Assembly (NCBI GenBank): GCA_964576615.1
Contig: CAZNUU010000001.1
Span: forward strand, 164,226-228,225
Reading direction: 5' to 3'
DNA from: an uncultured Candidatus Saccharibacteria bacterium
GTDB lineage: Bacteria > Patescibacteriota > Minisyncoccia > Phycocordibacterales > DATDWN01
DNA: 64,000 nucleotides
Under the pieces are notes generated by a model. That model saw only the letters and a program-made list of their open reading frames with translations. It was not told where the DNA came from and searched no databases. Shown one piece after another: positions 36,392 to 62,851 of the stretch; the stretch's first letter is position 1, and the number at the start of each line of letters is the position of its first letter. Made by a program: the position numbers and the translations under genes.

Positions 36392-36426
36392 GCGATTATA
36401 TTACTCTCTGTCTTCATAAATCACAA

Positions 36427-36614
36427 ATTGCAAAAACATTGCGCAGGAAATTAGAAAACAAAGACGAAAGCGTCAGTCTGGAGACACTGTTTGAGGCGAT
36501 AGCCGAGTTTGTCGAGAAGACGAGTTTGAGGATATTGTTTTCTTGATTTCCGAGCATAGTAAAATTGCACCAGCAATTTATACGTATTTTTGCAATTTGT
36601 GATTTAGTTTCTTT
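36427..36614 (+). ncRNA. conserved structured intergenic element, copy A (paralog of 59822..59994).
   Basis: Closed by a perfect 19-bp inverted repeat AAATCACAAATTGCAAAAA / TTTTTGCAATTTGTGATTT. The interior shares CATTGCRCAGGAAATTAG, GAGACACTGTTTGAG, CGAGTTTGNCGAGAAG and TTGTTTTCTTGATTT with copy B; internal hairpins covary. Confidence 0.5.
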
Positions 36615-36650
36615 TTTGCAAATCACAACAAAATATGCCATAATTCCTGG

Positions 36651-58966: not shown

Positions 58967-59180
58967 ACTAGTTTCATTTTTCAGTTTCAGAGCTTCCGCA
59001 GGCTGCAAGCAGGGTTCTGTCAACGTCCCGCTAAAGTTTTGTAATCAAAATTTAGGCGGGCTCATTGACAGATTGCAGCCGAGGACAGCTGAAAAAGCTC
59101 GCTGGAGCTTTTGAGGGTGCGATGAAATTGAAAAATGAAACTAGTTGAACAAATCCGATGATTATGTTAAGGTATTCCCC

Positions 59181-59809: not shown

Positions 59810-59821
59810 AACTTGTTTCGA

Positions 59822-59994
59822 CTCAAAATTTTTTAGAGCATTGCACAGGAAATTAGGAAACAACAGTGAGTCACGCCAGCCAGAGACACTGTTTGAGCGA
59901 AGCGAGTTTGGCGAGAAGCCAGTGACGAACGCTTTGTTTTCTTGATTTACGAGGATAGCAATTTGCTAGCAAGCAAAATATGCGTGCTCTCAAA
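59822..59994 (+). ncRNA. conserved structured intergenic element, copy B (paralog of 36427..36614), immediately upstream of ftsA.
   Basis: Closed by inverted repeat CTCAAAATTTTTTAGAGCA / TGCTCTCAAAAAATTTTAAGG. Shares conserved blocks with copy A. Internal hairpins GTGA-g-TCAC (A: GACG-aaag-CGTC) and TTTGCT-agca-AGCAAA (A: AATTGC-acca-GCAATT) covary. Confidence 0.5.
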
Positions 59995-60017
59995 AAATTT
60001 TAAGGATAAACCCCATT

Positions 60018-62499: not shown

Positions 62500-62531
62500 G
62501 AGAAAGCCGCGTGGGTACGCGGCATTGAGGG

Positions 62532-62657
62532 AGTGCTCAGACGGTAACAGGTCTGGGTCGGTTTTTGACCAGTTAGGTAAGGACACTTCGTGAAGCAGCT
62601 GGTTCAAGGCTGAGTCGAGACAGCTGGCAGACATGTCATTGCAGGTTCTGAGCACTC
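62532..62657 (+). other. structured element downstream of ftsZ bounded by a 10-bp inverted repeat.
   Basis: GAGTGCTCAG (62532-41) ... CTGAGCACTC (62648-57) enclosing CAGCTG...CAGCTG; downstream hairpin CTTGTCAAG-aaaggtgc-CTTGACAAG. Confidence 0.3.
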
Positions 62658-62851
62658 TAGATAAATTATAGCATATTTTATATATAACGCTCACCAAATA
62701 ATTTTTCAGACCGTTCACTTTTCCAGCGAAAAGTTCACTTAGTCCTCGGCATCTACTTGTCAAGAAAGGTGCCTTGACAAGACCATGCTAGAAGCCTGCG
62801 GAGTCTGAAAAATTATTTGGTTCGCTGGAGAATTGCTGTATACTAAATCTT

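What the first reader, a model, noticed from the sequence alone, without database searches (positions are those of the whole stretch)
36427..36614. Two-copy conserved structured RNA element with compensatory base changes (copy A), closed by a 19-bp perfect inverted repeat
Copy A (36427-36614) and copy B (59822-59994) share four or more conserved blocks: CATTGCRCAGGAAATTAG, GAGACACTGTTTGAG, CGAGTTTGNCGAGAAG and TTGTTTTCTTGATTTNCGAG. Three helices are preserved by different sequences. The outer closing stem is 19 bp in A and about 19 bp in B with unrelated sequence. Hairpin 1 is GACG-aaag-CGTC in A versus GTGA-g-TCAC in B. Hairpin 3 is AATTGC-acca-GCAATT versus TTTGCT-agca-AGCAAA. Covariation of this kind is the hallmark of a functional RNA rather than a protein-binding DNA site or a MITE. 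Both copies lie in the 5' leaders of plus-strand genes: a membrane protein upstream of infB, and ftsA. I do not recognise it as a known riboswitch or leader family.
Basis: seen in the sequence. Interest (0 to 1): 0.7.

Follow-up and report, generated by a model that had tools for sequence, protein, structure and literature searches.

The report
Cross-phylum mobile hairpin rod element
The two look-alike stretches are real, strongly structured copies of a small non-coding "rod" element with no Rfam entry; it is scattered through bacteria of at least seven phyla and behaves like a mobile insertion, not a switch for the neighbouring genes.

Summary
There are two + strand copies, A at 36417-36606 and B at about 59815-60011. 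They share the reported blocks, and A closes with a perfect 20-bp inverted repeat. With four relatives from other Patescibacteria they fit one fold of 59 pairs: 93% paired, 27 pairs with compensatory changes, 0 of 500 shuffles as good.

The 5'-leader or riboswitch reading does not hold. Close relatives with the same gene order have empty spacers at both sites, or a decayed remnant. Copy A lies upstream of the conserved DUF4446 promoter. Other copies sit beside unrelated housekeeping genes.

The centre, 5'-(CA)CUGUYUGAG-[mini-hairpin]-CGAGUUUG-3', tips long imperfect hairpins in about 35 species of seven phyla. These are often multi-copy, always intergenic, contain no gene and have no transposase neighbour. 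The written strand folds better than its complement in 31 of 39 members. The orthologous copy B is 77-88% identical where ftsA synonymous sites are saturated, so it is under selection. Neither the window copies nor 17 typical family members scanned match any Rfam 15 family.

Best reading: a non-autonomous, single-strand-acting mobile hairpin element, comparable to REPIN, ERIC or MITE elements, with a conserved docking loop. Transcribed copies are probably kept as RNA rods. Its partner protein and its function were not found.

The parts
36417..36606 (+). Copy A, whole element (190 nt): a three-way-junction rod closed by a perfect 20-bp stem
   Evidence: Absent from the orthologous spacer in L256 and L260; decayed in L258.
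36417..36436 (+). A: 5' arm of closing stem P1 (pairs with 36587-36606)
   Evidence: repeat I3: 20 nt, 100% complementary. P1 has compensatory changes in 10 of its 15 pairs across six copies.
36587..36606 (+). A: 3' arm of closing stem P1
36437..36447 (+). A: basal conserved block CATTGCGCAGG. The equivalents are AUUUGCA in Bacteroidota/Bacillota members and AUUCGCA in type-II Patescibacteria copies.
   Evidence: the motif is present 48-62 nt upstream of the core in 9 of 45 non-redundant members, against 3% of random windows.
36446..36461 (+). A: P2 5' strand GGAAATTAGAAAACAA (pairs with 36535-36551)
   Evidence: helix 3: 16 pairs, 95.8% paired; repeat I12.
36483..36513 (+). A: family-defining core GAC-ACUGUUUGA-GGC[GAUA]GCC-GAGUUU-GUC. 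It is an asymmetric internal loop with tandem G.A next to a mini-hairpin.
   Evidence: The same core occurs in about 35 species of 7 phyla. Model R1 scores copy A at 50.6 bits.
36535..36551 (+). A: P2 3' strand TTGTTTTCTTGATTTCC
36559..36584 (+). A: side hairpin 3 (GUAAAAUUGC-ACCA-GCAAUUUAUAC)
   Evidence: helix 8 has 10 pairs, 7 of them with changes on both sides, and is 98% paired.
36616..36644 (+). Not part of the element: promoter-like site TTGCAA-17-CATAAT of the DUF4446/infB operon, downstream of copy A
   Evidence: The same box lies at the same distance from the ATG in the empty-site relatives L256 and L260.
59815..60011 (+). Copy B, whole element, in the ybeY-ftsA spacer. Well-paired P1 arms are 59822-59840 and 59985-60004.
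   Evidence: repeat I9. Orthologous copies are in L261 and L159; L262, L263 and L265 have empty spacers.
59885..59912 (+). B: core GAC-ACUGUUUGA-GC[GAA]GC-GAGUUU-GGC
   Evidence: 53.3 bits.
59934..59950 (+). B: P2 3' strand TTGTTTTCTTGATTTAC (pairs with GGAAATTAGGAAACAA, 59849-59864)
59957..59983 (+). B: side hairpin 3 (AGCAAUUUGCU-AGCA-AGCAAAAUAUGC)

Best explanation
Copies A and B are two members of a family of small non-coding rod elements that has no Rfam entry. Each element is a long imperfect hairpin of about 130-330 nt. In the Patescibacteria version it is a three-way junction closed by a 15-20-bp stem. The tip carries a nearly invariant asymmetric internal loop, 5'-(CA)CUGUYUGAG / CGAGUUUG-3', capped by a 2-5-bp mini-hairpin.

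The elements are non-autonomous mobile insertions that act in single-stranded form on one particular strand.

Proposed mechanism. The conserved loop, and in one sub-family a second basal loop (AUUUGCA/GAAAC), is the docking site of a protein encoded elsewhere in the genome. That protein copies or moves the rod through a single-stranded intermediate, in the way REP/REPIN elements depend on RAYT and IS200/IS605 ends depend on TnpA. A copy that lands in a transcribed spacer, such as copy B inside the ybeY-ftsA operon, is transcribed and folds into the same rod. It is then kept by selection, most plausibly as an RNA processing or stability element, as described for Correia and ERIC repeats.

Shown here: the structure, the family, the strand specificity, insertion and decay at orthologous sites, the absence of coding capacity and of fixed neighbours, and purifying selection on copy B.

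Inferred, not shown: the trans-acting protein, the single-stranded intermediate, whether that intermediate is RNA or DNA, and the RNA-level role.
For: 1. Family. An exact-pattern scan of one genome per species gave 71 loci, about 55 of them true members, against roughly 16 expected by chance (my arithmetic). They come from Bacillota, Pseudomonadota, Campylobacterota, Bacteroidota, Patescibacteria, Nitrospirota and Melainabacteria, with 5-7 copies in some genomes. Three prophage-like contigs and 124 Ralstonia megaplasmids also carry it.
2. Structure. The helix flanking the core differs in sequence in every lineage but stays complementary: 36 sequences, 124 cells changed on both sides against 48 in shuffles, 0 of 500 shuffles as good, slid controls 28-46% paired against 75%. 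The Patescibacteria fold is equally well supported.
3. Strand specificity. The arms fold better on the written strand than on the complement in 31 of 39 non-redundant members, by a mean of 5.4 kcal/mol (Wilcoxon p = 5e-5).
4. Mobility. The repeated unit is only 100-380 bp and holds no gene. Orthologous sites are empty, filled or decayed at both window loci. Head-to-head pairs recur in five taxa. Lachnospiraceae and Phascolarctobacterium copies have conserved termini. Sites are enriched between convergent genes (14), depleted between divergent genes (3), and show no orientation bias.
5. Neighbours. Pfam matches of 116 flanking proteins are a mix of housekeeping families, none shared by more than five of them; no transposase, integrase, reverse-transcriptase or TnpB family is among the 25 most frequent families, which are the only ones the tool lists.
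6. Selection. Orthologous copy B is 88.5% and 77.1% identical between genomes whose ftsA four-fold sites are 36% and 45% identical.
7. MITE and ERIC/Correia precedents for transcript hairpins cut by RNase III or RNase E: PMC10969869.
Against: - No partner enzyme was found, and no target-site duplication is visible.
- The closing stems of A and B are unrelated in sequence. A transposase that reads terminal repeats would not allow that.
- The conserved part is the centre of the hairpin, not its ends, which is the reverse of ordinary MITEs.
- The exact core is shared across phyla, and multi-module architectures occur (a 3' a-b-a'-b' module, a basal loop). These look more like a functional RNA than like junk DNA.
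- The window genome shows only two copies in 64 kb.
- Strong purifying selection on B fits a host-useful RNA as well as, or better than, a selfish element.
- Apparent compensatory changes in palindromes can also arise from hairpin-templated repair, not from selection on pairing.
Confidence: 0.5

Rival explanations
1. A family of trans-acting structured small RNA genes (the RNA part of a ribonucleoprotein, or a ribozyme). The invariant asymmetric loop and the basal loop bind a widely conserved protein. Copies multiply by duplication and horizontal transfer, so the mobile behaviour is secondary.
For: - The core is invariant across seven phyla inside stems that covary freely.
- There are extra conserved modules: the basal loop AUUUGCA/GAAAC, CUUAG/CUUAG with a U.U mismatch, and a possible 3' pseudoknot.
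- Folding is strand-specific.
- Copy B is far more conserved than synonymous sites.
- The tandem G.A pair next to a G-C pair is a common protein-binding RNA motif (established knowledge of k-turns and the hammerhead core).
Against: - No promoter-like or terminator-like signal lies inside or at the ends of A or B.
- Orientation relative to neighbouring genes is random, and sites are biased to gene 3' ends.
- Copy number per genome ranges from 1 to at least 7.
- One orthologous copy has decayed and close relatives have empty sites, so the element is dispensable.
- There is no match to any Rfam family.
Confidence: 0.24
2. A site that works only as single-stranded DNA: a priming or single-strand-origin-like site, or a recombination site. 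It would resemble the ssoA origins of rolling-circle plasmids or folded attC sites, left in chromosomes by integrated elements.
For: - It is a strand-specific long imperfect hairpin with conserved internal and apical motifs.
- About 10 of 36 mini-hairpins are C(GNA)G triloops such as GCGAAGC and GCGTAGC. These are known as unusually stable DNA mini-hairpins (my recollection of Hirao and colleagues' work, not checked here).
- Many loops contain TAGC, which recalls the CS-6 TAGCGT of ssoA (from memory, a lead only).
- Some copies are in prophage-like contigs and megaplasmids.
Against: - Copies lie among chromosomal housekeeping genes with no replication, relaxase or integrase gene nearby.
- Multi-copy dispersal and long-term conservation of copy B inside an operon are hard to explain for an origin or recombination site.
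- In attC sites the conserved boxes are at the base of the hairpin, not at the tip.
Confidence: 0.1
3. One reading: a cis-regulatory RNA (leader or riboswitch-like) that controls the downstream genes DUF4446/infB and ftsA.
For: Both window copies lie upstream of + strand genes. The structure is conserved with covariation. Copy B is in the sense orientation inside the ybeY-ftsA spacer and is conserved in two relatives.
Against: - Copy A lies upstream of the conserved promoter-like site.
- Relatives have empty spacers at both sites.
- Ten Patescibacteria copies have eight different gene contexts.
- Family-wide there are 11 antisense and 14 sense placements, plus many placements between convergent genes.
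Confidence: 0.04
4. Structurally inert palindromic DNA. The arms are kept complementary by hairpin-templated repair or gene conversion, and the shared core is only common descent with no function.
For: Perfect 19-20-bp closing repeats (A, and another rod at 62693-62821) suggest recent homogenisation. Several unrelated rods occupy spacers of the same genome group.
Against: - Folding is strand-asymmetric.
- Unpaired blocks, not only stems, are conserved, and copy B is 77-88% identical where neutral sites are saturated.
- The same core occurs in seven phyla.
Confidence: 0.05
5. A small protein gene. Both copies carry an in-frame TTG...TGA reading frame of 34-35 codons (M[RH]RKL..ETLFE..EF.EK..LFS).
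For: The same frame and the same stop codon are present in A and B.
Against: - Across the family the segment between the two core halves is 5-14 nt long and not in multiples of three, so the frame is not kept.
- Variable segments change in complementary pairs, not at third codon positions.
- Conservation continues past the stop codon.
Confidence: 0.01

Closest known systems
Bacterial MITE-type palindromic repeats whose transcripts fold into long hairpins: ERIC/IRU, Correia (CREE/NEMIS), RUP, BOX, QMITE
   Same: Small (100-300 bp), non-coding, intergenic and multi-copy, with insertion polymorphism between relatives. The whole unit folds into a stable stem-loop. Co-transcribed copies are known to be cut by RNase III or to expose RNase E sites (PMC10969869; PMC2229807 was listed). 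Some members here have conserved termini.
   Different: Those families are confined to a genus or family and are defined by conserved terminal inverted repeats plus target-site duplications. Here the conserved part is the apical internal loop. It is shared across seven phyla, the closing stems of A and B are unrelated, and no duplication was seen.
REP / REPIN / BIME elements mobilised by RAYT (TnpA-REP) HUH transposases
   Same: Hairpins that matter in single-stranded form on one strand, a preference for gene 3' ends, clusters in alternating (head-to-head) orientation, no element-encoded gene, and mobilisation in trans (PMC6006769).
   Different: REPs are short (20-40 nt), start with GTAG or GTGG just 5' of the stem, and each family lies near its own RAYT gene. 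Neither feature was found here. The rods are 130-330 nt with a conserved tip.
IS200/IS605 ends and their gene-less derivatives (PATEs), including the TnpB guide-RNA (omega RNA) scaffolds
   Same: No target-site duplication, strand-specific sub-terminal hairpins recognised as single-stranded DNA, structured RNA at the element end, and wide horizontal spread.
   Different: There are no separate left- and right-end hairpins and no tnpA or tnpB gene nearby. The whole element is one hairpin. No conserved 4-5-nt target motif was seen at the left boundary (inspected by eye only).
ssoA-type single-strand origins of rolling-circle plasmids
   Same: A strand- and orientation-specific imperfect hairpin of about 150-200 nt, with one conserved internal region and one conserved loop motif (CS-6, TAGCGT). 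TAGC-containing GNA loops are frequent here. This comparison rests on memory and was not tested.
   Different: The copies here are chromosomal and dispersed, with no rep gene. The conserved sequences are not the RSB and CS-6 consensus as far as I recall.
Rod-shaped housekeeping RNAs (6S RNA, 4.5S/SRP RNA) and the tandem-G.A loops of k-turns and hammerhead ribozymes
   Same: Long imperfect rods with conserved internal loops. The local motif UGA-G...C-GA-G equals the tandem sheared G.A next to a G-C pair found in k-turns and in hammerhead stem II.
   Different: Those RNAs are single-copy essential genes and have Rfam models, which do not match. The loop asymmetry and sequence do not fit a standard k-turn (G.G at the -1 position). 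There is no three-way hammerhead core.
Repetitive hairpin-forming elements of organelle genomes (sponge mitochondrial RHEs, fungal double-hairpin elements)
   Same: Several unrelated families of hairpin-closed insertions repeatedly invade the same short spacers of a small genome (PMC2800124, seen). The same pattern appears here in these Parcubacteria.
   Different: A different domain of life, no sequence relationship, and an equally unknown mechanism.

Membership tests
MITE (miniature inverted-repeat transposable element) | Small non-coding unit, present in several copies, absent from orthologous sites in relatives | tested here: met
   The unit is 100-380 bp with no ORF. Both window loci have empty, filled or decayed orthologous sites.
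MITE (miniature inverted-repeat transposable element) | Terminal inverted repeats whose sequence is conserved among copies (the transposase-binding ends) | tested here: inconclusive
   Met in Dorea (TGTTTAATACACTA...TAGTGTATTAAACA) and Phascolarctobacterium (GCAATTAGTTAATCAA...TTGATAACTAATTGC). Not met for window A against B, whose closing stems are unrelated.
MITE (miniature inverted-repeat transposable element) | Flanking direct target-site duplication | tested here: not met
   No consistent direct repeat appears at the boundaries of A, B, or the Dorea and Phascolarctobacterium copies. This was an inspection by eye, and old duplications can decay.
MITE (miniature inverted-repeat transposable element) | A related autonomous insertion sequence that supplies the transposase | not testable with these tools
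   Only +/-4-10 kb around the copies could be read. No transposase family is among the 25 most frequent Pfam families of 116 neighbours, and none matched in the three calls that list every match.
REP / REPIN (RAYT-associated) | GTAG or GTGG tetranucleotide 0-2 nt 5' of the hairpin (PMC6006769) | tested here: not met
   The 5' flanks are ...TCTTCAT|AAATCAC (A) and ...GTTTCGA|CTCAAAA (B). No GTAG or GTGG is present.
REP / REPIN (RAYT-associated) | A RAYT (Y1 HUH) gene flanked by copies of the repeat | not testable with these tools
   Whole genomes could not be searched. No such family appears among the Pfam matches listed for flanking proteins, where one search lists only the 25 most frequent families.
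Cis-regulatory leader / riboswitch | Constant position in the 5' untranslated region of a functionally coherent set of genes, in the sense orientation | tested here: not met
   Gene contexts are varied. Placements are 14 sense and 11 antisense. Copy A is upstream of the promoter-like site. Relatives have empty sites.
Any Rfam 15 family (including 6S, SRP, hammerhead, twister, HEARO and IS605-orfB motifs) | Score at or above the family's gathering threshold | tested here: not met
   The only hits in the window were tRNAs. Nothing credible appeared at E<=10 on A, B or L206. Nothing matched in 16 typical family loci.
Kink-turn motif | A 3-nt bulge followed by tandem sheared G.A and A.G pairs, with a Watson-Crick -1b:-1n pair closing the C stem | tested here: inconclusive
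   The tandem G.A next to G-C and a 3-nt excess on the 5' strand are present. With a 3-nt bulge, however, the -1 pair would be G.G. Variants lacking the CA (Ralstonia) suggest a U.U / G.U / U.U / Y.G stack with a bulged U instead.
Small protein-coding gene | Reading frame preserved among homologs | tested here: not met
   The segment between the core halves is 5-14 nt long and not in multiples of three.

The most novel reading that the evidence does not exclude
The invariant asymmetric loop (CA)CUGUYUGAG/CGAGUUUG with its mini-hairpin, together with the basal AUUUGCA/GAAAC loop, would be a new cross-phylum functional nucleic-acid module. It could be a catalytic RNA, or the docking site of a universally conserved protein. 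It would ride on rod-shaped elements that spread horizontally between at least seven bacterial phyla, including Patescibacteria. That would make it a new class of structured mobile RNA or single-stranded-DNA element, not a lineage-bound MITE.
Probability: 0.25. Interest if true: 0.8.

Novelty: new variant of a known kind. Interest (0 to 1): 0.62.

Why it matters
Small hairpin repeats such as REP, ERIC and Correia are normally confined to one genus, and their conserved parts are their ends. Here the same roughly 20-nt asymmetric loop sits at the tip of otherwise unrelated rods in gut Bacillota, Bacteroidota, Proteobacteria, Campylobacterota, Nitrospirota, Melainabacteria and ultra-small Patescibacteria. 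It is missing from Rfam. At least one copy is kept by selection inside the cell-division operon of a reduced genome.

If the loop is a docking site, finding its partner would reveal either a new mobilisation system that works across phyla or a new RNA-protein module.

The finding is also a caution for genome scans. Textbook covariation and a position upstream of genes do not make a riboswitch. Comparing orthologous spacers in relatives separated the two readings quickly.

Cultivable carriers exist, such as Ralstonia pseudosolanacearum GMI1000 and Blautia species, so the question can be tested directly.

Tried and rejected
- Rfam: gathering-threshold scan of the window, permissive scans of A, B and one typical member, and a gathering scan of 16 typical loci. 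Only tRNAs and one unrelated THF riboswitch matched.
- Single 15-mers in viral contigs gave only chance hits; no locus held two blocks.
- The Patescibacteria-specific pattern found only 5 loci in metagenomes, two of them duplicates of loci already held.
- Full-text searches for core sequence strings returned only primer coincidences.
- Concept searches for a described family found nothing matching.
- BLAST: no match in E. coli complete genomes, none for a prophage copy in the phage collection, none for copy A in plasmids.
- Neighbour-gene enrichment for a transposase, integrase, reverse transcriptase or TnpB: none seen among the families listed.
- Promoter and terminator scan inside the elements: nothing.
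- Small-ORF reading: rejected on frame loss.
- Standard k-turn, hammerhead, attC, REP and LexA/parS-type DNA boxes: considered and rejected on sequence logic.
- Target-site duplications and a conserved target motif at element boundaries: not found.
- MAFFT plus RNAalifold on all ten Patescibacteria copies mixed two sub-types and gave a poor fold. The six type-I copies alone gave the clean structure.
Full report
**What is in the window**

Two + strand stretches are clearly related. A covariance model of the core also finds only these two copies.

Copy A is closed by a perfect 20-bp inverted repeat, 36417-36436 with 36587-36606, so the element spans 36417-36606. Copy B is closed by 59822-59840 with 59985-60004, and weaker pairing reaches 59815-60011. 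A folds far better than shuffled sequence (z = -6.4) and B moderately better (z = -2.9).

A lies between a divergently transcribed class-V aminotransferase gene (cysteine desulfurase-like) and a DUF4446 gene followed by infB. B lies between ybeY and ftsA. Rfam 15 reports only tRNAs in the window and nothing credible on either copy, even at E<=10.

**The structure is real**

Exact-pattern scans brought in related Patescibacteria copies: L158, L159, L183, L208, L211, L212, L250 and L251. L261 came from gene-neighbourhood look-ups.

Six type-I copies (A, B, L261, L159, L208, L158) share a fold of 59 pairs, built as follows:
- an outer stem P1 of 15 bp;
- a 16-bp P2, GGAAAUUAGRAAACAA pairing with UUGUUUUCUUGAUUUCC;
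- short helices P3 to P5;
- the core loop with its mini-hairpin;
- a 10-bp side hairpin, which makes the whole a three-way junction.

In this fold 93.4% of cells pair, against 79% in column shuffles. 27 pairs change on both sides, and 0 of 500 shuffles reach the observed values. Sliding the partners by 1-3 columns drops pairing to 32-49%. The fold was derived from these same sequences, so it is somewhat favoured, but the margin is large.

'Hairpin 1' of B is better explained as a long-range helix, GUCAC/GUGAC, which becomes GUCCC/GGGAC in L159.

**It is not a protein gene**

Both copies carry an in-frame TTG...TGA frame of 34-35 codons. Across the family, however, the segment between the two core halves varies from 5 to 14 nt and not in multiples of three. 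Variable segments change as complementary pairs.

**The core belongs to a widely scattered family**

The pattern GACACTGTTTGAG-N(2-16)-GAGTTTG was scanned against one genome per species. It gave 71 loci, against roughly 16 expected for random sequence by my arithmetic.

About 55 loci have the same anatomy:
- a long imperfect stem;
- the 5' half of the loop;
- a 2-5-bp mini-hairpin, often GCGAAGC or GCGTAGC;
- the 3' half of the loop;
- the return strand of the stem.

The carriers are Phascolarctobacterium, Blautia, Dorea, Ruminococcus, Diplocloster and other Clostridia, Ralstonia, Polaromonas, Duodenibacillus, Amphritea, Helicobacteraceae and other Campylobacterales, Porphyromonadaceae, Draconibacterium, Saccharibacteria, Paceibacterota and other Patescibacteria, a Nitrospirae genome and a Melainabacteria genome. 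Some genomes hold 5-7 copies among the fetched loci alone.

Three prophage-like contigs and 124 Ralstonia megaplasmids, including that of GMI1000, also carry the element. Complete E. coli genomes do not.

On 36 non-redundant members the 11-bp helix flanking the core differs in sequence everywhere yet remains paired. 124 cells change on both sides against 48 in shuffles, 0 of 500 shuffles match, and 75% of cells pair against 28-46% in slid controls.

Model R1, built from these sequences, found 85 matches in 77 loci. These include diverged copies that show which core positions can vary: U9 to C, loss of the CA dinucleotide, and A2 to G. The irreducible motif is UGUYUGAG...CGAGUUUG. It is best drawn as C-G, U.U, G.U, U.U, Y.G, a bulged U, G.A, A.G, G-C.

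Sixteen typical loci scanned at gathering threshold, and one further member (L206) scanned permissively, matched no Rfam family.

**It acts as a single strand of defined polarity**

When the core is replaced by a neutral loop, the arms fold better on the written strand than on the complement in 31 of 39 non-redundant members. The mean difference is 5.4 kcal/mol (Wilcoxon p = 5e-5). A purely double-stranded inverted repeat would show no such asymmetry. This test cannot distinguish RNA from single-stranded DNA.

**It behaves as a dispensable insertion, not a leader**

Site A. Two relatives with the same gene order (DUF4446 73-76% identical) have only a 56-bp spacer. That spacer holds the promoter-like TTGCAA-N17-YATART box. 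A closer relative (86%) has a truncated, decayed remnant of the 5' half of the element. In the window the same box lies at 36616-36644, downstream of copy A. Copy A is therefore not in the DUF4446/infB leader.

Site B. The ybeY-ftsA spacer varies among relatives:
- filled in the window, in L261 (FtsA 86% identical) and in L159 (77%);
- 27-40 bp and empty in three relatives (72-79%);
- occupied by an unrelated rod in L264.

Other Patescibacteria copies sit beside pilin/T2SS-F, HIT/PGK, recA, proS/dnaE, ruvC/yebC, gyrA and pilM genes.

Family-wide, 14 of 42 sites lie between convergent genes, 3 between divergent genes and 25 between co-directional genes. Of the co-directional sites, 14 are sense and 11 antisense.

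In multi-copy genomes the repeated unit is only 100-380 bp and contains no gene. The 116 flanking proteins match a mix of housekeeping families. No transposase, integrase, reverse-transcriptase or TnpB family is among the 25 most frequent families that the tool lists, and none matched in the three calls that list every match.

Pairs of copies in head-to-head orientation, 200-570 bp apart, recur in Blautia, Dorea, a Campylobacterales genome, a rumen Clostridiales genome and Ralstonia. Dorea and Phascolarctobacterium copies have conserved inverted termini. No target-site duplication was seen.

**Yet at least one copy is under selection**

Orthologous copy B is 88.5% (window against L261) and 77.1% (window against L159) identical. 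Four-fold degenerate sites of the adjacent ftsA are only 36% and 45% identical, and ftsA as a whole is 73-74% identical at the DNA level. The outer stem of B evolves by compensatory changes within this orthologous series.

Copy A has decayed in the genome that keeps copy B: L258 and L261 come from the same assembly.

**Interpretation**

Taken together, the evidence fits a non-autonomous, hairpin-shaped mobile element whose conserved loop is read in single-stranded form. Transcribed copies can be domesticated.

This is the logic of REP/REPIN with RAYT and of IS200/IS605 ends (PMC6006769). It is also the logic of ERIC and Correia repeats, whose transcripts form hairpins cut by RNase III or RNase E (PMC10969869).

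It differs from all of these in four ways:
- The conserved part is the tip, plus a basal loop in one sub-family. That basal loop, AUUUGCA/GAAAC, was found 48-62 nt upstream of the core in 9 of 45 members, against 3% of random windows.
- The core is shared across phyla.
- The closing stems of A and B are unrelated.
- No partner enzyme is visible.

For these reasons I give the mobile-element model only about 0.5. I keep a trans-acting structured RNA at about 0.24 and a single-stranded-DNA site at about 0.1. The frequent C(GNA)G mini-hairpins and TAGC loops hint at DNA, but that rests on my memory of the literature and was not tested.

**Verdict**

The leader/riboswitch interpretation is rejected. 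The thing itself is a variant of small hairpin repeats that I could not find in Rfam or in the searchable literature. It has an unusual cross-phylum conserved core, and its mechanism is unresolved.

Noticed in passing
window 58967-59145: Another hairpin-closed rod, unrelated in sequence to A and B. It has 34-nt arms, 82% complementary, and a minimum free energy of -89 kcal/mol. It fills the spacer between the hisS-like gene and the 93-aa ORF just upstream of ybeY. Five relatives have only about 40-60 nt there, so it is a lineage-specific insertion.
   Followed up: partly
window 62693-62821: A third kind of rod, closed by a perfect 19-bp inverted repeat (ACCAAATAATTTTTCAGAC / GTCTGAAAAATTATTTGGT), downstream of ftsZ. 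Its minimum free energy is -49.8 kcal/mol.
   Followed up: partly
window ~62530-62658: A G+C-rich closed structure (GAGUGCUCAGA...UCUGAGCACUC, -52 kcal/mol) directly after ftsZ. It contains GAAGCAGC, reminiscent of SRP RNA domain IV, but has no Rfam match at E<=1. It may be a divergent small RNA gene.
   Followed up: partly
L264:1371-1500 and L262:3955-4104: Relatives carry different rod-like hairpins at the same spacers, ybeY|ftsA and after ftsZ. The L264 tip is GGCUUUUCG-AGUGAG-[hairpin]-UGAA-CGAGAAAAGCC. These Parcubacteria spacers seem to be recurrent landing sites for several families of hairpin-closed elements.
   Followed up: no
L172, L194, L266:1585-1640, L278, L280 (3' of the rod): Proteobacterial, Bacteroidota and viral members carry a second module with segments in the order a-b-a'-b', which could form a pseudoknot. 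In L280 it reads CCUUGAU..GUACUUUUG..AUCAAGG.CAAAAGUAC. In Ralstonia it is CUUUCUUUG twice followed by CAAAGAAAG.
   Followed up: no
L189 and L203 (Phascolarctobacterium), 3' of the element: The right end of the element (..TTGATAACTAATTGCGAAT..) is repeated in tandem as a unit of about 39 nt, three to four times.
   Followed up: no
L180, L206, L234, L269 and the Patescibacteria copies, about 50-62 nt 5' of the core: These members share a basal internal loop, 5'-AUUUGCA (AUUGCRCA or AUUCGCA in Patescibacteria) opposite GAAAC. Their rods also contain CUUAG/CUUAG boxes with a central U.U mismatch. This defines a sub-family that links gut Bacteroidota and Bacillota copies with the Patescibacteria copies.
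   Followed up: partly
window 36609-36625 versus 36417-36436 and 36587-36606: The perfect closing stem of copy A is built from the same words (TTGCAA, ATCACAA) as the native promoter region just downstream. The decayed ortholog L258 has TTTTTAGA in place of TTGCAAAAA. This suggests the stem was remodelled by templated repair or conversion from the neighbouring sequence.
   Followed up: no
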